A stretch of 64,000 bases of DNA. Source: the human T2T-CHM13v2.0 reference genome, Homo sapiens. The translations under genes and the position numbers were made by a program. The DNA lies in the NCBI RefSeq assembly GCF_009914755.1, contig NC_060946.1. One strand, written 5' to 3'. Shown one piece after another: positions 2,179 through 27,860 of the stretch. The notes below the pieces were generated by a model, which was not told where the DNA came from, did not search any database, and saw nothing but the letters and a program-made list of their open reading frames with translations. The stretch's first letter is position 1. The number at the start of each line of letters is the position of its first letter.

Positions 2179-4584
2179 TTGAACTCACTCACTGAATATT
2201 TGCACAGCACCTGATTCTTTCTGAAGTCCTCTTTGTATATTTCATATCCTTTGGGCTCATAAATGTCATCATTGTAGCGAATATTGGGGGTCCACTGTGA
2301 ATGCTTCTACTCCTCAGTCCCTTCAGTGACCCTGTGAGGTGGGTTGTATCATTATCCCCATTGTACAGATGGGGAAGCTGAGGCACAGATCTAAGATCAC
2401 AGAGATCACTAGTAAGTGCCAAAGTCTTGAACCCCGGGCATTTTGCCCCCAGAGCTAGGCTCCTCCCCCTGCTCTAGACCCTCTCAGTGAAGATGGTGGC
2501 CCTCATCAGAGGTGAGTAGGACAGGTCCCTGTCCTTGGGCACGTTTTATTGCAGCTGGCTATGACGCACAAGGTGGGGAGGGCGGGGGCTCGGTTCCCAC
2601 AAAACACTGGCACAGAGATACCACCCTGGCCTCTGGGCACTGCTTCTCCTCTGACTGAAGTGGAGAGAAACCTGAACCAGGCCCACCTAGCCTGTGTGGA
2701 CCCAGACCTGCTGAAGATTCTGAGCCCATGTCTGACCCCCCGGCACCCCCTGGATGGAGCAGCGCTTGCTGTACCCACTGTGGTGTCCCGGGACTGTGGG
2801 CTCCTCGAGGGGTCCTGCCTCAGTCTTGGAGCCACCGAGAGGAGCATGGCACAGTTTAGCGACCACTAAAGTCACACAGCTCAGAGATGGCATGGCGGCT
2901 GGTGTCTGCTCTCAGCTTCCTTTTAGGAAAAACAAGGAGCCTCTCACAGCCCTTTTCTTCTCTCCCAGAGTCCCTGGAGTCCTGTTCCTCAATGCAGGAT
3001 GTCAGAAAGTCCCAGGGCACTTGGCAGTGAGGGTTCCTGGCCACCCGAAGACCTACCAAATGGGAGTATGCGGGCCCAGGCCCCTCTGCTTTAAACATGC
3101 CTGCAGTGACTCCGGGGCCCACTGAGGTTTGGGAATTGCTCCCCTCTAGGCCGCGTGAGCAGCCCGTAGCAGACTGAGGGCCATGATGTGCAGTGGCCTG
3201 CGGGGGTTTCATGTCCAGGGTCCCCGGTCAAGGCTAGCAGGTCATGAATGCTGACAGGCAGCAAGGGCTGACTGTGAGCTCTGGAGCCCCCAGATACAGA
3301 GGTGTTTCTCATCTGGAGCAAGCGCCTGCTCTGAATCAGGCCCCTGCCCCGTGAGACGCAGCTGCTCCCTGGTCTGTGCAGAGCCTCTGATTCTGGCCTA
3401 CTGTCACCATCACCAGGTGACCAGGAGATCCCGGCGGGATCTGCAGACATGGACACACTGCCACACATAGCTGCCTGCCTGGGGCCTGCTGTCCACCCTC
3501 TCAGGCCCACTGTTCCCCTCTAGGCGGGGTCAGGAATGAAAGCTACCCCACGGGGACAGGTAAAGACCGGAGATGCCTCTGAGAAAGTGTTTGGTAACAG
3601 TAAGCCTCGAAACGGCATCTCTGTCCTCCACCTTTCACAGTCTCTGGGTCAGACGCCCCATTCCTCTCAGTGGTCCCGCCGACTGAGGCAGGACCCCTCA
3701 AGAAGCACACAGTCCTGGGACATCCGAGCCACCATGGCATGCTGCCCAGTCTGGGGTCAGACGTGGGCTCAGAGCCTTCAGGAGGGAGCAGCGAGTTCCC
3801 TGTGGGGGCCACATGAGCTGGGCGGGCCCGAATCTTGCTTCTCCTCAGTTCAGCGAGAGCAAGGTGTGGGGACATGCTAGATAGGGCAATGCTGAGATTT
3901 TTAGTGTGGGTTGAAGGGGATGTTTCCAGAAACGGGCTCTCTGAAGGCTGGGATTGGGTAGTGACCTGCTCACTCTCCGTCCTGCACCCCCTCTCATACA
4001 CGTGTGGACTCACGGCCTGGCCCTGCTCCTTGCCCGCCTGAGATGGGTGGTCCAGAGGGGGTCTCAGACATGGGTCACACAGGCACACAAAGTCCTCTTT
4101 GGGGCTGGAGAGCTTGGAAGATTTGGCATTCGGGCTCAAGGATCTCAGCTGGGGAGCTGAGGTCTGAAGGGTGAAGGAAACATGGGCCAGGGAGAGAGTG
4201 TCAGACAGCGGGAGCAGGTGCCAAGGCTCAGGGCAGGTGGCAGCAAGGCTTCAAGGAGTGAGGGAAGGCCGGATGGGCTGGAGCAGATTGCACCAGGAGG
4301 GCAGGAAATGAGGCGGGAGAGGGGCCTTGGAGGCCACATGGAGGACGCCGGTCTTGATCCCAGCAGGAGTGGGAGGCTGCGGAGGCCTTTGCAGAGATAT
4401 CATCAGGACTCCCGAGAACTCCCTGCACATTACCTGGAGTGTCCTTTTCAGGCATCAGATCTGTATGACTTCAAAATTAGTTTCTCCATGTTGTCAGAGT
4501 TTACACTCTGCTGCCGGGAAGTTGCATCACATCCGTGTCAGCAGCAAAGTTTCACTCAAAGCCATTTTCTTTCTTTCTTTTGTA

Positions 4585-4740
4585 TTTTATTTTATTTTAT
4601 TATTTTATTTATTTTTAAAAATAGAGACAGGGATTTCACTATGTAGCCCAGGTTGGTCTGGAACTCCTGGGCTCAAGCAATCCTCCCGCCTCAGCCTCCC
4701 AAAGTGCTGGGATTGTAGGCAGGAGCCACTTACGCTCAGC
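4585..4740 (-). mobile_element. Alu monomer (FLAM-like)
   Basis: T-rich tail then atagagacaggg...cccaaagtgctgggatt. Confidence 0.8.
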
Positions 4741-5818
4741 TTCAAAGCTGTTTTCATTCTGACCGACATGGTCAGTGTCCCCAGCCCCATGGGAGCCTGT
4801 CTGGGCTCTGGGACCCTGGTCTCAACTGTGTCCTGGCCATCTCCACTTGTATGTCCTGGGGGTAACTGGCTTCTGCCTGGAGCCCCTCTTGTGCCTTTTT
4901 TCCTCTTTAAGAGAGAGGTGTGGTATAGAGCCTCCCGGTGAGTGGAGCCTGGGCCCCACCCGACCCATGCTCTGTGCAGGTCCCGGAGCTGGACAGTGTG
5001 GCAGCCTGAGACCCCCTTGCCCTTCCCTGTGTGTGTTCAGAGGTGCTCGGCGCCCGCTGGCTTCTGTGTGGTGCTGGGCATTTCTGCTGTGGAGCACGCC
5101 TAGCCTTGGTGGGTGCCCCCTCCGCAGTCCCGCCTCCCCACTGTCTCCACGGCACTGTCCTCCATGACGGGCTCAGCTGGCTGCCTGGTGTCTGTGGGAT
5201 CCAGGCTGAAACGTGGAGGGAAAGCAAACAGGTAGAGAAATAGAAAGAGGGTGAGGCTGAACACGTTTTGCTGTTACACATCATCCCCCCCCACCTTTTT
5301 TTTTGCTATTTATTTCTCAATATTTTTTCTGCATGTTATTTTACATACAACATTGCATATTGATTCTTTTCCATGGAATGTACCAAACATTTTCCATTTC
5401 ATTATAACCATCCAGACTCTTCAAATGTATTTATAAATAGTGGCCACAGGGAACTACCTGGTGCCTGAAGCTTTCCCACATACCAGATTCCGGCCAGCGG
5501 AGGCATCTCATGCCCTGTGAATGCTGCTCTCTCCTTATTTCTCCTGAAAAATGGAAATGGTTTGGACCAGCTGCTGGCGGAGTCTGGGAGGAGCGAGGCC
5601 GGGCAGAATGATGAGTTTGACTTCATCCCTTTCCAGAAGAGGGGAAGGCGGGAGGATGCCCCATCCACCTTCCAGAAGGCGGTTCCTTGCAGTCACCCTC
5701 CCCTAGTGCTGGGTTCTCTGCTTCTCCATTTGTCAGAGATGAGTTGGCCTCCCCCTGGTTCCCCGTGTCCCTGCCACCCCCACAATCGCTGACCGTGACT
5801 TCCTTTTGTCCCTGGCAG

Positions 5819-5889
5819 AGGAGAACGAGGAGCGCACGATGATTGACCCCACTTCCAAGGAAGACCCCAAGTTCAAGGAACTGGTCAAG
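5819..5889 (+). CDS. PARVB: beta-parvin coding exon 3 (71 bp; (E)ENEERTMIDPTSKEDPKFKELVK)
   Basis: Acceptor tccttttgtccctggcag|AG and donor AAG|gtaagg; peptide matches recalled human beta-parvin; phase 0 joins to 24307. Confidence 0.97.
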
Positions 5890-6893
5890 GTAAGGAGCTC
5901 CGTCTTGGTTGGAATCTTCCTCTTAGGGCGAGGACTTGGCTTTGGGGTTCAGGGCTCTCATGGACAAAGGGAGCTAAACCCGGGGCTCCTGAAAGGGATG
6001 TTGGTGCTGCATGAGAAGGTGGGCAGACATGTTGGCAGAGGAGGACGGCAGAGAGGATCCAGCCCGAAGTGCCAAGCGCCTCCCATGTGCCCTGCTCGGC
6101 TGGGGCTTTAACGACCAGTCTTGTGAACTCTTTGCTGGACAGAGCTCGGCAGGAGGGGATTTTAGGATTAGGAATGAGTGCTGGCGTGAGCTAGTGTAGT
6201 ACCTTACAGATGGAGTTGGAACTCCGTCTGGAGCCTGGTGGGGTCTAGATTCAGATTTAACCCTGAAAAGCAGGAGGGGTCACCCTGGCCACTCCTGGCC
6301 AGGAGCCATCTGATGCCGATGCCTGCGCTGAGTGGACAGTCAGTTTCCACCACGTCTGGAGGCGTGAATCCCAGCTGGGCGAGGAACCTGGCTGCCCCGC
6401 TCCCAGAAGTCAGGGAACAGTGAGGGAAGGGGCCCATGGTGCTGGCCTTCTTGGGCAGCGGCTGTCCTTCTCCAGCGTGGCTCCTGCTCACCGTGAGGCA
6501 GTGCTTGTGTGGGTCCAAGGACAGATTGCAGTTTTGGTTGCTCTGATCGAAACCACGGTAGGGCTTGAGAGAGAATCCCCTGAAGAGGAGAGGCTGTGGG
6601 CTCTGCCTGACCTTGGTGAACCCAGGGTGGGCTCTTGGGCACACGGCTGTGGCAGACACTTGGCTTCCATAGCCCACGGCGAGCTTGGGCACCCCGGGAT
6701 TCTTGAAAATGCCGATGGTGACAGTGTCTGCCAGAAACAGACATTTTTCTATTAAAAGTGCTTTTTAAAAAGCTTCTCCACCTTCACCACCACAGTGGAC
6801 CCAATGCTGGGCTGTACAACTGTGTTTTCATGAGGGCTCATTCAGAATAAGTAAGACGGCTTGCAAGTTATGTTCTTTTAAAATCTACATTGA

Positions 6894-7535
<642 letters not shown>

Positions 7536-7729
7536 ATTCCAAATGTCAGTTTTAGGGTCCACCCAAAGATGTTGATTATTAATAACTTAAATTATTTAAT
7601 TTGTTTTATTTTTTCCCTCTGAATACCCACTTTGTTATTTCAAACAGAAGAACGTTGATGAGGAAAGTCACTGTCTTTTAGCCACGAAAATGTTGTTCTT
7701 GGGGGATATTTAAGCAAGGGATGCATGAG

Positions 7730-8175
7730 AATTATCAGGCTTCTACAAAGAAACAGACCCAATTGTGTCAATATCTAGAGAGAGGTTTATTATGATATTG
7801 GCTCACTTGACTACGGAGGCTGAGAAGTCCCCCGACCTGCCATCTGCAAGCTAGAAAGCTGGAGGGCCAGTGGTAGAGATGCCAGCCTGCGTCTGCAGCC
7901 CTGAGTACCGGGAACAGGGTGGGAGAAGATCCAGGTGCTGGCACTAGCAGTCCCCGGCAGAGAGAGGTGAATCCCAACTTCCTCCACCTTTTTGTTCTAT
8001 GGGATCAGATGAGGCCCACCCGCTTTGGGGAGGGCTGTCTGCTTTACTCTATCCACCAATTCAAATGCTCATCTCCTCTGAACACCATTCCAGACACACC
8101 CAGAAACAATGTTTCATTGGCTATCTGGGCACCCCAGAGCCCAGGCAAGTTGACACAGAAGATGAACCATCCCAT
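7730..8175 (-). mobile_element. MLT2-family (ERVL) LTR
   Basis: ggaggctgagaagtcccccgacctgccatctgcaagct ... agacacacccagaaacaatgttt ... caagttgacacag. Confidence 0.75.
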
Positions 8176-8321
8176 GCACCTTTCTAAAGATTTTTTTCTT
8201 TGATTTTTGAGCAATGCTTGAGAGTTCACAAACTCCATTCACAGGATTATCTCCTTGAAACAACACCCTGGGGAGCTGTGTCATTCTTGCTTCCATGTGG
8301 AGACTCAGAGAGAGGTGAAGG

Positions 8322-8625
8322 GGCTGGGCGCCATGGCTCACACCTGAAATCCCAGCGCCCTGGGAGGCCAAGGTTGGGGGGAATCACTTGAGCCCAGGAG
8401 TTCAAGACCAGCCTGGGCAACATGGTGAAACCCTGTCTCTACCAAAAAAAAAAAAATTAACTGGGTGTGGTGGGAGGCACCTGTAATCCTAGCTATGCAG
8501 GAGGCTGAGGTGGGAGGATTGCTTGAGCCCCGGAGGTCAAGGGTGCAATGAGCTAAGATTATGCCTGTGAATAGCCACTGCACTCTAGCCTGGGTGACAG
8601 AGCAAGACCCTGTCTCAAAAAAAAA
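8322..8625 (+). mobile_element. Alu (AluJ-like)
   Basis: ggctgggcgccatggctcacacctg ... gcaagaccctgtctcaaaa. Confidence 0.9.
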
Positions 8626-9294
8626 GACAGGTTTAAGTAACTCCCCACCCCCAGGTGCTGGGGTTAGTGATGTGTCTGGGCTTGAATGGCTCTGTCCATT
8701 TGGTGCTGTGTTCACTGAGCCAAGTTGAGTGCGTGTGGGGTCCTGTGCTGGGCCCTGGGATTCGGGGATGGATAAGTGACTTCCCTGCTATGCAGGATTT
8801 GATTTATGTTCCTCCTGGATGTCTGCAGTGCCACCCACCCCTGCCTTTGCTGCTTTGCTGCCAAAGACCCCCAGGCTGTTTTGGCCTTGGTGGGGCGAGG
8901 GCTGGCTGCTGCATGTCTTCCAGGTTTCAGATTGAGAAGAAGGCCACATTGAGGGGCATGGGGTGGACTGATGGGAAAGCTAATTAGCATCCTTTGGGGC
9001 AAAGTACAACTATGGGGCAAAATACAACTAAGAACAGGAAGGAGCTGAGGAATAAATGCCTCTCCCCGACTTCCCTGATGTGGGCTTCTGAGACCATGGC
9101 TCATGGAGATGGGCTGCATGGCTGATCATCAGCTGGGTTTTCTTCTGAAGCCATAGCCAGCTCATGCACCTGCCTCACCTCCCTTCCCCTCCCTGTTGCT
9201 CGTCTAGGGTGCCCTCCCCTCACCCCCAAACCCCTGCCAAAGAAAAGGCATCAGCAGTGAGCTTTGTCCTGGCTCTGTTTTTCAGGGAACCTGG

Positions 9295-9800
9295 GCCAGA
9301 ATCATGGTCCCCAAAGATGACCATGTGATAATCCCTGGAGCCATTGACTATCATCTTACATGGCAAAGGGACATGGTGGGTGTAGTTAGTGACCTTGCAA
9401 TGAGGAGGTCATCCTGGATGATCCAGGCGGGCCCAGTGTGTTCGCTAGTGTCTGTATAAGAGGGACATGGGGAGCTTTGACTGCCCATGAACATGGCAGC
9501 TTGACCCTGGAGGCAAGGTGGTAGCTTCTGGCTCTGAAGATGGAAGAAGGGGCCATGCACTAATGGATGCAGGCGGCCTCTGCCTCTAGAAGTGGAAAAG
9601 ACAAAGAAATGGATTCTCCACTAGAGAACCCAGAAGGAACCCTGGAGCCTCCAGAAGGAACCAGCCCTGCTGACACCTGGATTTTAGCCCAGTGGAACAG
9701 ATTTTGGACTTTGACCTCTAGGACTGCAAGAGAATCCACTGAGCCGTTGGAAGCCCCTGGGTTTGTGTTAATTTGTTACAGTAGCCACAAGCAACTAACA
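9295..9800 (+). mobile_element. MLT1-family MaLR LTR
   Basis: agaatcatggtccccaaagatg ... ggattctccactagag ... ctgacacctggattttagcccagtg ... aatttgttacagtagcc. Confidence 0.75.
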
Positions 9801-10544
9801 CCATCCTGTTCTCCAGGCTGCTGCCTCCAGCTGCAGCTGGCGTGCCCTGGCCACTGGGGCCAGGCAGGGTGGGTTTTGATACCTGCAGCGGCAGCATCCT
9901 TGGCCATTTCCTGGAAGGGCCAGTTGCCAGACACTGAGATGCCTGTTACTGCAACTGTCCCACCAGCCTGGAGCACGTGTTTCTGGAGACAGGCAAATTC
10001 TGGAAGGCTCCACCTGCTCTCAGACTGCGGGTTGCGTCTCAAAGCAGGCTGGCAGACATTTTCCACTCTTGATCAATCATTTTCCAAAATAAGCATAGAC
10101 ACAGCAACCCGGAGAGCAGCTTCGGTTTGGCTGTCGGTGGCGTGTTAGTTACTGTAGTGGTGGCACAGAGGCGATATACGTTAAATATTAGTTCTCACTG
10201 ACTATAGCCTTTTAAACAGAGCAGCGTGTGGGTGGCAGCAGGTGAGTTGGCTATACTGAGCTTGGGCTGCCCTTGGTTGATTCTTGTTTGTCAGGCATGC
10301 AGGGGGCTCTCTGTGCGTCCAGGCATATTCCCTGTCTGGATTTGCTTGTGTTCATGGATTTTCAGCACCTCCTTTCTTCTGGTTTGGGAATGAGTCAGGT
10401 CCTCACTACACAAGGCCAGAGCAGTATGCGTGTGTGGGTAGGGGTGAGCAGGTGTCATTCCCTGCCTCCCCTCCTCCTTCACTGCCCCAGCCACCCTGAC
10501 CACCTTGCTGTTCTGAGGACACACTGAGCCAGTGCCCACTGGGC

Positions 10545-17496: not shown

Positions 17497-18310
17497 AAAC
17501 CCATTTTAAAGCCATGAGCCAAAAATTATAAAAGACATGCAAAATATTATGAGTAGTCACTTATCTAGTATTTGCGGCATCTCTCAGGCTTGGGGCTTTG
17601 CTGGGAGCTCTGAGGGGGTGGAAGAGGCTCTGTCACTGGCCTTACCTGGCTGTCAAGGGCTGAGTGTTTGGTGGAGGGAAGACGTCTGCAGCCTGGGAGG
17701 CTGCGGGTCAGAAGGAGGTCAGCCGGGGAGCTGGGAGGATCGTGGGGAACCCGTGGTGGAAATCAGCATGGCGAGAGAGTGGAAGCAGGCAGAGGAGGGC
17801 TTTGAAGACCAAAAAGGGTAGTTAGGATTGCTGCTCTGTGTGTCTGTAAACTTGGTGTTGTCTCTCGAATTTAAATGACATGCTTTGAAAACAAAAAAAC
17901 AAACAAAAACCAAACCCATAAAATCTCACTAAGTGGCCAGAGCAAGTTCCCGGGGGGTGGCGCATAGATGCAGCGGTCTGGGTTCTGTGGCTGGGGGAGT
18001 TGGCTTGGGGTCCGTGGCTGGGTCAGTCTTCAAGAGCCACCCTGGGTGGCACTCCAGGTCTCTTGGTCTGGGGGGAATACCCTGACCCCAGCGGTTTCAC
18101 GGCCTCCTCCCCACTCAGCCTGGGGGAGAGTCCAGGGTCGGCCCTGTCCCCCTCCCCCCACTCCTGTCACTATCAGTCCCCTGTGCTCAGCTTACTGGCA
18201 GGGTTCCTCCTGGCTGTCCCCTCTGCCTCCAGCGCTCTTTCCTCAGGTGTCCACGCAGCTCGTCCTCACCCTTTTCTGTCTCTGCTCAGATGCCGCCTGA
18301 GGCTCCCAAA

Positions 18311-18404
18311 ACAGGGTCTCACTCTGTCACCCAGGGTGGAGTGCAGTGGTGCAATCACAGCTCACTGCATCCTTGACCTCCCAGGCTCAAGCGATCCTCC
18401 TGCC
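18311..18404 (-). mobile_element. Alu right-arm fragment abutting the VNTR
   Basis: acagggtctcactctgtcacccagg...ggctcaagcgatcctcctgcc. Confidence 0.8.
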
Positions 18405-18412
18405 AGCGAGCT

Positions 18413-21280
18413 TGTTACAATTCCTGCACCAACACGGATACATTGTTACTAAAGCCCTGTACCAACACAGATAGATTGTTACTAAGGCCCTACACCAGAA
18501 CGGATACATTGTACATTGTAACTAAAGCCCTGCACCAACACGGACACATCGTTACTAAGGCCCTGCACCAACACAGATACATTGTTACTAAGGCCCTACA
18601 CCAACACAGATACATTGTTACTAAGTAAGGCCCTGCACCAACACAGATACATTGTTACTAAGGCCCTGCACCAACACAGATACATTGTTACTAACTAAGG
18701 CCCTGCACCAGGACAGATACATTGTTACTAAGGCCCTACACCAGCACAGATACATTGTTACTAACTAAGGCCCTGCACCAACACAGATACGTTGTTACTA
18801 AGTAAGGCCCTGCACCAACACAGATACATTGTTACTAAGTAAGGCCCTGCACCAGCACAGATACATTGTTACTAAGGCCCTGCACCAACACAGATGCATT
18901 GTTACTAACTAAGGCCCTGCACCAACACAGATACGTTGTTACTAAGTAAGGCCCTGCACCAACACAGATACATTGTTACTAACTAAGGCCCTGCACCAAC
19001 ACAGATACATTGTTACTAACTAAGGCCCTGCACCAACACAGATACATTGTTACTAAGGCCCTGCACCAACACAGATACATTGTTACTAAGGCCCTACACC
19101 AGCAAAGATACATTGTTACTAAGTAAGGCCCTGCACCAACACAGATACATTGTTACTAAGTAAGGCCCTGCACCAACACAGATACATTGTTACTAACTAA
19201 GGTCCTGCACCAACACAGATACGTTGTTACTAAGTAAGGCCCTGCACCAGCACAGATACATTGTTACTAAGGCCCTGCACCAACACAGATACATTGTTAC
19301 TAAGTAAGGCCCTGCACCAACACAGATACATTGTTACTAAGTAAGGCCCTGCACCAACACAGATACATTGTTACTAAGTAAGGCCCTGCACCAACACAGA
19401 TACATTGTTACTAACTAAGGCCCTGCACCAACACAGATACGTTGTTACTAAGTAAGGCCCTGCACCAACACAGATACGTTGTTACTAAATAAGGCCCTGT
19501 ACCAACACAGATACATTGTTACTAACTAAGGCCCTGCACCAACACAGATACGTTGTTACTAAGTAAGGCCCTGCACCAACACAGATACATTGTTACTAAC
19601 TAAGGCCCTGCACCAGCACAGATACATTGTTACTAAGGCCCTACACCAGCACAGATACATTGTTACTAACTAAGGCCCTGCACCAACACAGATACGTTGT
19701 TACTAAGTAAGGCCCTGCACCAACACAGATACATTGTTACTAAGTAAGGCCCTGCACCAGCACAGATATGTTGTTACTAAGGCCCTGCACCAACACAGAT
19801 ACATTGTTACTAAGTAAGGCCCTGCACCAACACAGATACATTGTTACTAACTAAGGCCCTGCACCAACACAGATACGTTGTTACTAAGTATGGCCCTGCA
19901 CCAACACAGATACATTGTTACTAAGGCCCTGCACCAACACAGATACATTGTTACTAAGTAAGGCCCTGCACCAACACAGATACATTGTTACTAACTAAGG
20001 CCCTGCACCAACACAGATACATTGTTACTAAGGCCCTACACCAGAATGGATACATTGTACATTGTTACTAAAGCCTTGCACCAACATGGACACATCATTA
20101 CTAACTAAGGCCCTGCACCAACACAGATACATTGTTACTAAGGCCCTGCACCAACACAGATACATTGTTACTAAGTAAGGCCCTGTACCAACACAGATAC
20201 ATTGTTACTAACTAAGGCCCTGCACCAACACAGATACGTTGTTACTAAGTAAGGCCCTGCACCAACACAGATACATTTTTACTAAGGCCCTGCACCAACA
20301 CAGATACATTGTTACTAAGTAAGGCCCTGCACCAACACAGATGCATTGTTACTAACTAAGGCCCTGTACCAACACAGATACATTGTTACTAGCTAAGGCC
20401 CTGCACCAACACAGATACATTGTTACTAAGTAAGGCCCTGTACCAACACAGATATATTGTTACTAACTAAGGCCCTGCACCAACACAGATACGTTGTTAC
20501 TAAGTAAGGCCCTGCACCAACACAGATACATTGTTACTAAGGCCCTGCACCAACACAGATACATTGTTACTAAGTAAGGCCCTGCACCAACACAGATACA
20601 TTGTTACTAACTAAGGCCCTGCGCCAGAACGGATACATTGTTACTAAGTAAGGCCCTGCACCAACACAGATACATTGTTACTAACTAAGGCCCTACAGCA
20701 ACACAGATACATTGTTATTAACTAAGGCCCTGCACCAACACAGATACATTGTTACTAAGTAAGGCCCTGCACCAACACAGATACATTGTTACTAACTAAG
20801 GCCCTGCACCAACACAGATACATTGTTACTAACTAAGGCCCTGCACCAGAACGGATACATTGTTACTAAGTAAGGCCCTGCACCAACACAGATACATTGT
20901 TACTAACTAAGGCCCTACAGCAACACAGATACATTGTTATTAACTAAGGCCCTGCACCAACACAGATACATTGTTACTAAGTAAGGCCCTGCACCAACAC
21001 AGATACATTGTTACTAACTAAGGCCCTGCACCAACACAGATACATTGTTACTAAGGCCCTACACCAGAATGGATACATTGTACATTGTTACTAAAGCCTT
21101 GCACCAACATGGACACATCATTACTAACTAAGGCCCTGCACCAACACAGATACATTGTTACTAAGTAAGGCCCTGCACCAACACAGATGCATTGTTACTA
21201 ACTAAGGCCCTGTACCAACACAGATACATTGTTACTAAGTAAGGCCCTGCACCAACACGGATACATCCCATTACTAACTA
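18413..21280. repeat. large VNTR/minisatellite, about 80 units of 33/37 bp: GGCCCTGCACCAACACAGATACATTGTTACTAA(+CTAA or +GTAA)
   Basis: Read directly; near-identical head-to-tail units with three length/sequence classes. Confidence 0.98.
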
Positions 21281-21670
21281 TGGAGGTGCTTTATTCAGAT
21301 ATCCTCAGTGTCACCTGTTCTCCTTTGGCCGTCTCAGGGTTCCTCCCAGGACACCACATTGCATTCAGTCCTGAGGCTTCTCTGGGCTCTGACAGTTTCT
21401 CAGACTTTCCTTGTTTCTGTTGACCTTGACAGTTTTGAGGATTACTGCTCAGAGAGTTTGTAGACTGTCCCTCTGTTGGGGTTTGTCTGATGCTTTCTTC
21501 ATGATTCGATCAGGTTGTCACTTTGGGGAGGAAGTCTGTGAGGTCAAGTGCCATTTTCATCGCATATCGGGGCACACCCATCTGCACACCTTCGCTATTG
21601 GCGTCGGTCGTCATCACCTGTGCAGGCGTGCTCACCCGGTTTCTCCACTGGATCCAGCTTTATTTTCCTT
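21280..21670 (-). mobile_element. L1MC-like 3' fragment continuing from the VNTR
   Basis: ctttattcagat...gacagtttctcagactttccttgttt...gaccttgacagttttgagga...gaggtcaagtgccattttcatc resembles recalled L1MC3/4 3' UTR (antisense). Confidence 0.7.
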
Positions 21671-23339
21671 TCTATCAACCATCACAACCTGAAACTGTGG
21701 GCGTCCGTGTGTCTCTTGGAGTCTAGTAGAATGTAAGGCCCTCAAGGCAGAGGCCTCGTCTGTCCTGTTTGTCACCAGAGCCTGGTCCGCAGTGGTGCCT
21801 AGTAAGTTAGTCCACCCATTCACCACATCCTTACAGAGCTCTGGCGCCAGGCAGCAAGTGCCGGTGCTGCGGACAGAGCCACAGACAAGCCGGTCATAGC
21901 TTCTGGCCTCATAGACCTTGGAGTCTAACAGGGGAGAGCCTTTCAAAGATTTGCTCCCATTGCTAATGGGACAGGATGAGACAGGGTGCTGGGGGACTGA
22001 GAGCTGTGACGGGGGATGCTCCCTGGAGGGCTGGGGTGGTCTGAGCTCTGGAGGAGGAAGTGCTGCTCAGGCAGTGAGGGAGGGGGTGGTATCTGGGTTA
22101 GGGGAAGTGGCGTGTGCAGAGGCCCCGTGGCGCAGATGAGCTTGGGCTATTTGAAGAACCCCAGCGAGGAGGCAGGGTGTTCGGGTGGCTGTGGCCGTGG
22201 CCCAGGGGCAAGAGGGAGATGGGGAGGAGTGGAACCGGTTAAGAAGTGGACAGAAGTAGGGTGAGAAGGCAAAGTCCAGGATCTGAGACAGGAGGATGGT
22301 GGCCTTCCTGCCTCCCTTCCTTCCTGCCTTCCCTGGAAAGGAGCACGCCTGGGGTGTGGTGAGTCCTGTTAGAGATGCTCACGGAACCCCCCCTCCCCAC
22401 CCCGCCCCGTGGCAGGGGCATGGAGAGGCGGGCCCTGTGCTTAGGGGGTCCTGGGTTAGGGACGGCGCTGGAAGTTGCAGGAGGGCAGAAACCGGCCTCT
22501 GAAGAGAGTGGGGAGGGAGAAGGGGAGCTGTCCAGGGCCCTCAGGCATGCATCATGTAAGGGTCAGGGGAGTCAGGGAGGATCCCCCAAAGGAGGCTGTA
22601 GAGGGTGAAGGAGGAGGGCAGGAAGCCAGTGAGTGTGGGGGTCTGTGGGCCATGGGGGGTGGGGGAGGCAGCTCTTTGAGAACTGAGGGGGTTCGGGTGC
22701 AGCCCTGGGACTCCCAGGCCAGTGCTCTCCCTCCCCCTGCCAGCCACCTCGCAGAGAGATCCCGGGGTGGAAGCAGGGTAGTTGGTGCTGTGCCCTGACC
22801 TTCAGAGGTGGCATTGACAAGACCAGAATGCCACAGGGCCATGCACCTCTCCCTGCAAACCGCCCTTTAATTTATTTTTACCTCTGTTCCTTGTGGGCTT
22901 GTGTGTCAGGTTCGATATTTTTATGTTACTGGGAAAATAGAATGTGCTTCACAGAAATTTGCCTTGTGGCCAATATTGCAGGTTGCAGCTGTTTCAGAGT
23001 GACAGGGGACGGTATATTCTGGACTTGTGCCCTTTTGTTCATCTCTGAGAGGGGCCATAAACTCCCATTTCCGAGAGGTTACTGGGACCAATGAGATCAT
23101 TGTATTAGTTTTCCTTGCACAGGAAAATCACACACTCTGTGCCATTGATTGAGTCCATTTTATTTTGTGGAATAGACATGTCAGAAGCAGGATTGGCCAG
23201 GTGGAATTGTGTTTGGCAGGAGTCCTGTCTTTCCATAGGTACTTTCATAATGGAAGCAATCTCCTTCTGAAGTGTATCACCCGGTGAACTGAATGGAAAA
23301 TCTCTTGTGAAAAGGCTTAAGAGGAAGGCTGGCCTGGAA

Positions 23340-24306: not shown

Positions 24307-24409
24307 GTCCTCCTCGACTGGATTAATGACGTGCTGGTGGAGGAGAGGATCATTGTGAAGCAGCTGGAGGAAGACCTGTATGACGGCCAGGTGCTGCAGA
24401 AGCTCTTGG
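24307..24409 (+). CDS. PARVB: beta-parvin exon 4 (103 bp; VLLDWINDVLVEERIIVKQLEEDLYDGQVLQKLL), CH1 domain
   Basis: ctcctgcag|GTC ... TTGG|gtgagt; parvin CH motif DLYDGQVLQKLL; frame continuous with neighbours. Confidence 0.97.

Positions 24410-27479: not shown

Positions 27480-27860
<381 letters not shown>

What the first reader, a model, noticed from the sequence alone, without database searches (positions are those of the whole stretch)
18413..21280. Intronic VNTR is a sense-strand array of about 25 perfect UACUAAC motifs (possible QKI/SF1/U2 sponge with copy-number tuning)
Seen: the 33-bp core ends in GTTACTAA and is followed by nothing, CTAA or GTAA. Each CTAA variant spells TACTAAC on the PARVB pre-mRNA strand; I counted about 25 by hand in 2.85 kb, and nearly every unit carries ACTAA. 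Established: UACUAAC is the optimal U2/SF1 branch-point sequence and contains the QKI core ACUAAY; QKI is a STAR-family splicing regulator active in muscle and heart. Inference: the nascent intron could be a multivalent platform or decoy for QKI/SF1, with strength varying by VNTR allele length and unit composition.
Basis: partly seen in the sequence, partly recalled or inferred. Interest (0 to 1): 0.8.

Follow-up and report, generated by a model that had tools for sequence, protein, structure and literature searches.

The report
Transposon-born intron minisatellite carrying branch-point motifs
A 2.85-kb tandem repeat inside a PARVB intron really does spell 25 perfect copies of the optimal splicing branch-point word, but they are copies of one chance word from an old transposon, and nothing yet shows that they do anything.

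Summary
Window 18423-21266 is a 33/37-bp tandem array (TRF 78.6 copies) on the PARVB sense strand. It holds exactly 25 TACTAAC; the other 61 kb holds none.

The count comes from amplification, not from 25 independent events. The unit is homologous to a roughly 37-bp segment of an old interspersed repeat that continues on both sides of the array. Ten aligned copies of that repeat elsewhere have no TACTAAC at this place. Only 25 of 79 units keep the word. The rest lost it by a C-to-G change (GTAA units) or a 4-bp loss (short units).

The genome holds denser TACTAAC arrays (205 and 42 copies). Outside one of them, such clusters are about as common as a reversed control word.

- **For binding:** the 7-mers are predicted to be unusually unpaired.
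- **Against strong QKI binding:** 0 of 25 cores has the bipartite QKI half-site.
- **Against use as a branch point:** the annotated 3' splice site lies 3 kb away, and the local pyrimidine tracts and 5'-splice-site-like words are weak.

The sponge idea has a published precedent, the tandem UACUAAC repeats of Gomafu/MIAT. No print or held supplement links this repeat to PARVB expression.

Verdict: most likely a neutral minisatellite born from a transposon. Its sites are plausibly bound, but function is unproven.

The parts
18423..21266 (+). Tandem array of 33/37/40-bp units: 78 units plus a lead unit. It lies in the 18.4-kb PARVB intron between exons 5819-5889 and 24307-24409. It starts 12.5 kb after the 5' splice site and ends 3.0 kb before the 3' splice site.
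   Evidence: TRF period 37, 78.6 copies, score 4228. Unit parsing. The only place in the genome matching a 201-bp piece of the array.
18689..21278 (+). The 25 exact TACTAAC words. The first starts at 18689 and the last at 21272. Spacings run from 37 to 218 nt, and only two neighbouring pairs sit 37 nt apart.
   Evidence: Positions and spacings. Predicted unpaired probability, median 0.515.
18411..18452 (+). Lead-in: the 5' edge of the array, homologous to the same old interspersed repeat that forms the 3' flank (TTGTTACAATT..GATACATTGTTACTAAAG).
   Evidence: Local alignment to 10 repeat copies. In 6 of 10, no shuffle of 200 reached the real score; in 3 of 10, 3 of 200 did; 1 of 10 showed no signal.
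21287..21600 (+). 3' flank: an old interspersed repeat with 72-85% identity to many copies genome-wide. Its upstream continuation in other copies aligns to the array unit.
   Evidence: 1665-2175 first-look candidates, 40 of 40 scored matches. Alignments.
18310..18408 (+). Partial Alu-like piece in antisense orientation, abutting the 5' edge of the array.
   Evidence: Read by eye. The Alu identification is recalled; no tool named it.
20578..21021 (+). Two tandem 222-bp (6-unit) blocks, 99.55% identical. This is a recent multi-unit duplication inside the array.
   Evidence: blastn. A second block pair (19999-20218 and 21022-21245) is 96.9% identical.

Best explanation
This is a minisatellite that grew by tandem duplication of a roughly 37-bp segment of an old interspersed repeat lying in a PARVB intron.

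That segment reads approximately TTATTAACTAAAG in other copies of the repeat. In this copy it read TTACTAACTAA, which happens to spell the optimal branch-point word. Unequal exchange then multiplied the unit and its variants into 79 units.

- The CTAA form looks ancestral.
- The GTAA form is a C-to-G variant.
- The 33-bp form has lost one CTAA.

The 25 UACUAAC words are therefore one chance word copied many times, not a selected set of sites.

On the nascent intron these words are probably single-stranded and could be touched by SF1, U2 or QKI. Most likely this has no measurable effect on PARVB splicing or expression, and none on the nuclear pool of these proteins.

Shown: the anatomy, the origin, the counts and the predicted accessibility. 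Inferred: neutrality, and the stoichiometric argument against a sponge acting in trans.
For: Origin:
- The 3' flank from about 21287 is an old repeat.
- In 10 copies whose match reaches the query's first 8 bases, the sequence just upstream aligns to the array unit and to the array's lead-in. For the unit, 8 of 10 copies score z >= 3.3. For the lead-in, 9 of 10 score z >= 2.7.
- 0 of 10 of these copies hold TACTAAC in that segment.
- Both edge units of the array already carry the C of TTAC.

Turnover:
- A 222-bp block is duplicated at 99.55% identity, and another block pair at 96.9%.
- C and G units alternate: 15 G-to-C and 12 C-to-G neighbours.

No sign of constraint on the word:
- Only 25 of 79 units keep it.
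- In CTAA units, mismatches to the unit consensus are 3/189 in the motif columns and 30/810 elsewhere. GTAA units, which lack the word, show the same pattern at 1/210 and 24/900.

Base rate:
- Other arrays hold 205 and 42 TACTAAC.
- Genome-wide triple clusters number 452, against 265 for the reversed control. One chr3 array supplies most of the excess.

Weak fit to a working site:
- 0 of 25 bipartite QKI elements.
- The annotated 3' splice site is 3,028 nt beyond the array.
- The pyrimidine proxy is 10-11 of 20 (T 2-6), against 13-19 of 20 (T 6-13) at the nine real 3' splice sites.

No print link:
- PARVB plus VNTR gives 2 papers, neither on this repeat.
- UACUAAC plus VNTR gives 0 papers.
- PARVB is absent from the held supplements of three VNTR-expression studies.
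Against: - 25 perfect copies of the highest-affinity SF1 word on the sense strand is not trivial. A lncRNA with only 7 copies binds SF1 and changes splicing kinetics in vitro (PMC3116199, abstract and section 6).
- The words are predicted to be far more accessible than the rest of the array or its flanks: 0.515 against 0.076 and 0.016.
- The motif columns are among the least variable of the unit, although this also holds in units without the word.
- Neutrality is inferred, not shown. I could examine no CLIP, lariat, long-read allele or expression data.
- One supplement file of PMC10234305 was not searched and another was cut when stored.
- Bakhtiari 2021 did not include this long intronic array among its targets.
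Confidence: 0.75

Rival explanations
1. The nascent intron is a multivalent platform or decoy for SF1, U2 snRNP and/or QKI, and its strength scales with the number of CTAA units. It acts mainly in cis on PARVB pre-mRNA, for example by slowing removal of the 18.4-kb intron or by QKI-linked nuclear retention.
For: - 25 exact UACUAAC on the sense strand, predicted unpaired with a median of 0.515.
- UACUAAC gave the highest SF1 binding among the branch-point variants tested, and the tandem repeats of Gomafu bind SF1 (PMC3116199, section 6).
- QKI competes with SF1 at ACUAA sites and represses splicing (PMC13004596, abstract).
- Recent block duplications make length variation between people likely (this is an inference).
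Against: - 0 of 25 cores have a UAAY half-site within 1-20 nt. Only two pairs of cores are as close as 37 nt. In RAI14, QKI binding needed both ACUAAC elements, 9 nt apart (PMC13004596, section 6 and the heading of section 8).
- The word is a transposon-derived accident that was amplified. It has been lost from 54 of 79 units.
- Denser arrays exist elsewhere.
- An intron is short-lived, and SF1 and QKI are abundant nuclear proteins, so titration in trans is stoichiometrically implausible. This rests on my own knowledge and was not computed.
- Tsuiji et al. found that multiple UACUAAC were not conserved outside Gomafu and were not sufficient for nuclear retention (PMC3116199, section 6 and one passage of section 7).
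Confidence: 0.1
2. The array matters at the DNA level. It would be a length-variable block of transcription-factor sites or a chromatin feature that modulates PARVB or a neighbouring gene, as proposed for many expression-associated VNTRs.
For: - The unit carries CATTGTT 60 times in the array, against 2 in the other 61 kb. That this is a SOX-type HMG motif is recalled, not tested.
- VNTR length and motif composition are reported to associate with expression of nearby genes genome-wide (abstracts of PMC10234305 and PMC8024321, seen in the listing).
Against: - Any word in the unit is multiplied about 60-fold by the array, so the same amplification caveat applies.
- The RefSeq enhancer intervals given by the hub do not overlap the array.
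- PARVB does not appear in the held supplements of PMC10234305, PMC8275641 or PMC11701250. One file was unsearched and one was cut when stored.
Confidence: 0.07
3. The array is a field of pseudo splice sites. A CTAA unit gives a branch point and an AG 22 nt later. The next GTAA unit gives a GUAAG 15 nt after that. Together they would make decoy micro-exons that engage the spliceosome unproductively or yield rare cryptic exons.
For: - 24 of the 25 TACTAAC have an AG at least 12 nt downstream. In 18 of these 24 the branch A to AG distance is 22 nt, and in 10 of 24 a GTAAG follows exactly 15 nt after that AG.
- AAGTAAGG occurs 28 times in the array and 0 times elsewhere in the window.
Against: - The GTAA-unit site pairs weakly with the U1 5' end: -5.0 kcal/mol. 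20% of 3,652 GT sites outside the array do as well. The nine real sites range from -5.5 to -13.4, so all nine are stronger.
- The pyrimidine proxy is poor: 10-11 of 20, T 2-6.
- A 15-nt exon is too short for ordinary exon definition (my own knowledge).
- The selected transcript has no exon here. I could not see the other 11 transcripts.
Confidence: 0.04

Closest known systems
Gomafu/MIAT lncRNA tandem UACUAAC repeats (Tsuiji et al. 2011, PMC3116199; review PMC9221589)
   Same: Both have several exact UACUAAC words in one nuclear RNA. For Gomafu, SF1 binding was shown, QKI interaction is reported in the review, and the proposed effect is on the local availability of splicing factors.
   Different: - Gomafu carries 6-7 words (human MIAT 7) in an exon of a stable, nuclear-retained RNA, and the feature is conserved from chicken to human.
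- Here there are 25 words in a short-lived intron, made by a recent tandem array from a transposon.
- Conservation, binding and effect were all untested here.
RAI14 intron 10 dual ACUAAC branch sites, where QKI competes with SF1 (PMC13004596)
   Same: Both have perfect ACUAAC words in an intron of a gene expressed in muscle-type cells. The same two proteins are at issue.
   Different: - In RAI14 the two words are 9 nt apart and sit 34 and 43 nt from a real 3' splice site. Both are needed for QKI binding.
- Here the words are at least 37 nt apart, lack a half-site (0 of 25), and lie 3 kb from the annotated 3' splice site.
Functional intronic VNTRs, such as TERT intron 6 VNTR6-1 with a 38-bp unit (PMC11830802, abstract)
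   Same: Both are intronic minisatellites with a unit of similar length. In TERT, copy number changes an RNA/DNA feature and thereby splicing.
   Different: TERT VNTR6-1 acts through an expandable G-quadruplex, supported by deletion, ligand and association data. The PARVB array is 44% G+C, has no such data, and the proposed feature is a protein-binding word.
Ordinary transposon-derived minisatellites
   Same: The unit is homologous to an internal segment of an interspersed repeat, the repeat continues on both flanks, and there are higher-order blocks and variant units.
   Different: Nothing differs structurally. The only unusual point is which 7-mer was amplified.

Membership tests
Minisatellite / VNTR | Head-to-tail copies of a unit of 7 bp or more | tested here: met
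   TRF period 37, 78.6 copies, 87% matches.
Minisatellite / VNTR | Copy number varies between individuals | not testable with these tools
   Only one human assembly is held. Recent internal block duplications (99.55% and 96.9%) make variation likely but do not show it.
Transposon-derived minisatellite | The unit is homologous to a segment of an interspersed repeat that continues into the flanks | tested here: met
   For the unit, 8 of 10 repeat copies score z >= 3.3 against shuffles. For the lead-in, 9 of 10 score z >= 2.7. No tool named the repeat's class: 0 of 24 upstream ORF pieces hit Pfam.
Gomafu-type UACUAAC-repeat RNA | Multiple exact UACUAAC on the transcribed strand | tested here: met
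   25 on the + (sense) strand.
Gomafu-type UACUAAC-repeat RNA | The repeats lie in a stable, mature, nuclear-retained RNA | tested here: not met
   By the hub's annotation the array is intronic, between exons 5819-5889 and 24307-24409. Exon frames were checked. No Rfam family matched.
Gomafu-type UACUAAC-repeat RNA | The repeat feature is conserved across species | not testable with these tools
   No other vertebrate genome is held.
Gomafu-type UACUAAC-repeat RNA | SF1 (or QKI) binding is shown | not testable with these tools
   No CLIP or pull-down data are available here.
Quaking response element (bipartite, ACUAAY-N1-20-UAAY) | Core ACUAAY | tested here: met
   25 ACTAAC in the array.
Quaking response element (bipartite, ACUAAY-N1-20-UAAY) | UAAY half-site 1-20 nt from the core | tested here: not met
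   0 matches in either order in the array. The definition is as quoted in PMC13004596, citing Galarneau and Richard 2005, which I did not read.
Working intron branch point | Lies tens of nt upstream of a used 3' splice site with a pyrimidine tract | tested here: not met
   The annotated 3' splice site is 3,028 nt beyond the array. Local AGs lie 22 nt downstream in 18 of 24 cases, but the pyrimidine proxy is 10-11 of 20, against 13-19 of 20 at real sites. Use of cryptic sites was not testable.
5' splice site / U1 site (GTAA units) | Strong complementarity to the U1 5' end | tested here: not met
   -5.0 kcal/mol. 20% of 3,652 other GT sites do as well, and all nine real sites are stronger. The U1 motif was recalled.

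The most novel reading that the evidence does not exclude
A transposon-born intronic VNTR works as a cis-acting, allele-tunable landing pad for SF1 and QKI. The more CTAA units an allele has, the longer the nascent PARVB intron is held by these proteins, for example through QKI-linked paraspeckle association. This would shift intron removal and PARVB output in QKI-rich muscle and heart. It would be an intronic, polymorphic counterpart of the Gomafu UACUAAC repeat.
Probability: 0.07. Interest if true: 0.65.

Novelty: new member of a known kind. Interest (0 to 1): 0.3.

Why it matters
If the array were functional, it would show that unit composition, and not only length, of an intronic VNTR can set the dose of a splicing-factor binding platform. 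It would also give a human, polymorphic test case for the SF1-QKI competition model in a gene tied to heart and muscle.

As it stands, its main value is cautionary. Tandem amplification multiplies every word in a unit. Here that means 25 TACTAAC, 28 AAGTAAGG and 60 CATTGTT, so motif counts inside a VNTR are not evidence of selection.

The genome-wide look also turned up two denser arrays of the same word. These are better starting points for anyone wanting to test the sponge idea.

Tried and rejected
- **SVA-like element (antisense Alu piece followed by a VNTR): rejected.** The array matches only its own locus in the genome, and its unit is homologous to a different old repeat.
- **Known structured RNA: rejected.** 0 Rfam matches over 17500-22000.
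- **Coding repeat: rejected.** No stop-free frame of 50 aa or more runs through the array. The longest piece overlapping it that is not just flank is 83 aa, at its edge.
- **Strong U1 sites in GTAA units: rejected**.
- **Constraint on the motif: not seen.** Low variability of these columns is shared by units that lack the word.
- **Naming the flanking repeat's class: failed.** Then 24 of the 54 stop-free pieces of 45 aa or more, taken from 7 repeat copies, gave 0 families. My recollection that it resembles the 3' end of an ancient LINE-1 is unconfirmed.
- **Link to the PARVB 50-bp deletion associated with hypertensive heart failure (PMC12622093): rejected.** That deletion lies in an AG/AGAC run (supplement passage). 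The window has such a run at 27759-27860, 6.5 kb downstream of the array in the next intron.
- **Literature searches:**
  - PARVB+VNTR: 2 papers, neither on this repeat.
  - PARVB+'tandem repeat': 10 listed, none on this repeat judging by title and abstract.
  - PARVB+QKI: 6 listed, none relevant judging by title and abstract.
  - UACUAAC+VNTR: 0 papers.
  - QKI+sponge+ACUAAC: 9 papers, on circRNA tools or MIAT, judging by title.
  - A 4-term search with min_terms 2 was swamped by VNTR+minisatellite papers and told me nothing.
- **Supplement searches for PARVB:** 0 hits in PMC10234305, PMC8275641 and PMC11701250. PMC8024321 lists two other short PARVB repeats only. A coordinate search in PMC10234305 returned 28 hits; the two passages shown were both on chr19.
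Full report
**What is there**

Window 18423-21266 is a single tandem array with period 37, 78.6 copies and 87% matches. It has a 144-bp higher-order period (sequence read). Splitting it at the conserved unit start gives 78 units plus a lead unit:

| Unit type | Count |
|---|---|
| Exact CTAA, 37 bp (…GTTACTAACTAA) | 24 |
| Degenerate CTAA (TATTAAC twice, TACTAGC once) | 3 |
| GTAA, 37 bp | 28 |
| Degenerate GTAA | 2 |
| Short, 33 bp | 17 |
| 40 bp | 3 |
| Terminal partial unit | 1 |

Exact counting gives 25 TACTAAC on the + strand: 24 in CTAA units and one in the terminal partial unit. There are none in the other 61.1 kb of the window, and none of the reverse complement anywhere. 78 of 79 units hold ACTAA.

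The + strand is the PARVB sense strand. The nine annotated exons, joined in order, read open in one frame with 0 stops. The array sits in the 18.4-kb intron between exons 5819-5889 and 24307-24409. It ends 3,028 nt before the 3' splice site.

**Where it came from**

A 201-bp piece of the array matches only its own locus in the genome. The 3' flank, from about 21287, is an old interspersed repeat. It gave 1665-2175 first-look candidates, and all 40 scored matches had 72-85% identity.

I took the 10 copies whose match reaches the query's first 8 bases and aligned what lies just upstream of the match. That upstream segment, of the type …GAACCAATATTGATACATTATTATTAACTAAAGTCC…, is homologous both to the array unit and to the array's lead-in at 18411-18452.

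- For the unit, 8 of 10 copies score z >= 3.3 against 200 shuffles each.
- For the lead-in, 9 of 10 score z >= 2.7.
- One copy (L032) gave no signal for either, and L031 gave none for the unit.

The old repeat therefore runs through the array. The array is a tandem multiplication of about 37 bp of it.

None of the 10 copies holds TACTAAC in that segment. They mostly read T where the array reads the first C. The long form with AACTAA is what the parent repeat and the terminal unit have, so the CTAA unit looks ancestral. The GTAA unit is then a C-to-G variant, and the 33-bp unit has lost one CTAA. This ordering is my inference.

No tool named the class of the parent repeat. Of 54 stop-free ORF pieces upstream, I sent 24 to Pfam and got 0 families. 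My recollection that it resembles the 3' end of an ancient LINE-1 is unconfirmed. A partial antisense Alu-like piece abuts the 5' edge (by eye).

**Turnover**

Blocks 20578-20799 and 20800-21021 (six units each) are 99.55% identical. Blocks 19999-20218 and 21022-21245 are 96.9% identical. C and G units tend to alternate, with 15 G-to-C and 12 C-to-G neighbours. This is the signature of ongoing unequal exchange. It makes length and composition variation between people likely, but with one assembly I could not show it.

**Is the motif count meaningful?**

The 25 words are copies of one word, so they are not 25 independent events. Three checks speak to selection.

1. *Retention.* Only 25 of 79 units keep the word.
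2. *Variability.* In CTAA-type units the 7 motif columns differ from the unit consensus in 3/189 cells, against 30/810 in the other columns. GTAA-type units, which lack the word, show the same pattern at 1/210 against 24/900. The low variability belongs to that part of the unit, not to the word. The numbers are small and the units are not independent.
3. *Base rate.* Three TACTAAC spaced 20-50 nt apart occur 179+273 times in this genome, against 141+124 for the reversed control word. Most of the excess comes from one 31-bp array on chr3 (TRF 218.7 copies) with 205 TACTAAC on its minus strand. Another array on chr2 holds 42 TACTAAC, 165 ACTAAY and 162 bipartite QKI elements. The PARVB array never has three words in a row at that spacing, so it is less dense than any locus in that list.

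Amplification also multiplies other words of the unit: 28 AAGTAAGG and 60 CATTGTT, against 0 and 2 elsewhere in the window.

**Could the sites work?**

*In favour.* A local-folding calculation (150-nt window, 100-nt span) gives a median probability of 0.515 that the UACUAAC 7-mer is unpaired. The figure is 0.076 for all 7-mers of the array and 0.016 for the flanks. UACUAAG in GTAA and short units scores 0.040 and 0.026.

Papers read:
- Tsuiji et al. (PMC3116199; abstract, section 6 and one passage of section 7) show that the tandem UACUAAC of Gomafu pull down SF1. UACUAAC bound SF1 best among the variants tested. Human MIAT has 7 such words. Multiple words in other transcripts were not conserved, nor were they sufficient for nuclear retention.
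- Pereira de Castro et al. (PMC13004596; abstract, sections 6 and 11, passages) show SF1-QKI competition at ACUAA branch sites. In RAI14, two ACUAAC elements 9 nt apart form the high-affinity site for dimeric QKI.
- The Gomafu review (PMC9221589, passages) reports QKI interaction with Gomafu.

*Against.*
- No core in the array has a UAAY half-site within 1-20 nt, in either order (0 of 25).
- Only two pairs of cores are as close as 37 nt.
- The words cannot serve the annotated exon, which is 3 kb away.
- As cryptic 3' splice sites they have the right branch-to-AG distance: 22 nt in 18 of the 24 words that have a usable AG. But the pyrimidine proxy is poor, at 10-11 of 20 with 2-6 T, against 13-19 of 20 with 6-13 T at the nine real sites.
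- In 10 of 24 cases a GTAAG follows 15 nt after the AG. That site pairs weakly with the U1 5' end (-5.0 kcal/mol). 20% of 3,652 other GT sites in the window do as well, and all nine real sites are stronger.
- A sponge acting in trans is implausible on stoichiometry: a few short-lived intron copies against abundant SF1 and QKI. That is my own reasoning, not a computation.

**Other checks**

There was no Rfam family, and no open frame runs through the array.

**Print**

- PARVB+VNTR finds two papers, neither on this repeat.
- The All of Us long-read preprint reports a 50-bp PARVB deletion associated with hypertensive heart failure. Its supplement places the deletion in an AG/AGAC run. The window has such a run at 27759-27860, 6.5 kb downstream in the next intron.
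- No paper in the searched library holds both UACUAAC and VNTR.
- PARVB is absent from the held supplement text of three VNTR-expression or VNTR-motif studies. One file was unsearched and one was cut when stored.
- The adVNTR study lists two other short PARVB repeats only.
- bioRxiv supplements were closed, so the read-depth VNTR study listed could not be checked.

**Verdict**

The anatomy is real and neat: a transposon-born intronic minisatellite that happens to amplify the optimal branch-point word on the sense strand in an accessible context. The best-supported reading (0.75) is that this is a neutral by-product. The sites may well be touched by SF1 or QKI, without regulatory consequence.

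It fails the bipartite-QKI test and has no supporting data. A DNA-level VNTR effect (0.07) and a pseudo-splice-site field (0.04) are weaker rivals.

The array is a new member of known kinds: transposon-derived minisatellites and RNAs with repeated UACUAAC. Interest is modest.

Noticed in passing
L054 (G000:C3:200183000-200192999), array at locus 3155-9870: A 6.7-kb array with a 31-bp unit (TRF 218.7 copies) carries 205 exact TACTAAC on its minus strand, eight times as many as the PARVB array. Its gene context and direction of transcription are unknown to me.
   Followed up: partly
L055 (G000:C2:239367000-239376999), array at locus about 4007-5605: A TTAGTA-type array has, on its minus strand, 42 TACTAAC, 165 ACTAAY and 162 starts of the bipartite QKI element ACTAAY-N1-20-TAAY. 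If transcribed on that strand, it fits a QKI platform far better than the PARVB array.
   Followed up: partly
window 27759-27860: A 102-bp AG/AGAC run. It matches the repeat in which the All of Us long-read preprint (PMC12622093, supplement passage) places a 50-bp PARVB deletion associated with hypertensive heart failure. It lies 6.5 kb downstream of the VNTR, in the next intron, and is unrelated to it.
   Followed up: partly
window 20578-21021: Two adjacent 222-bp six-unit blocks are 99.55% identical. This is a very recent duplication within the array.
   Followed up: yes
window 18413-21290: CATTGTT occurs 60 times in the array and twice in the other 61 kb. I recall it as a SOX-type HMG site. 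AGATAC occurs 63 times against 10.
   Followed up: no
window 18310-18408: A partial antisense Alu-like fragment lies directly against the 5' edge of the array. This gives a superficial SVA-like look that the unit homology does not bear out.
   Followed up: partly
window 18413-21280: The 2.85-kb array is not among the hub's 'longest masked' stretches, although it would be the longest by far. It appears to be unmasked in NCBI's file.
   Followed up: no
window 18486, 20032, 21055: The rare 40-bp unit and its diverged neighbour occur three times. The interior copies read TG or CA where the edge copy has CG. This suggests an old edge block was copied inward and has since lost CpGs.
   Followed up: partly
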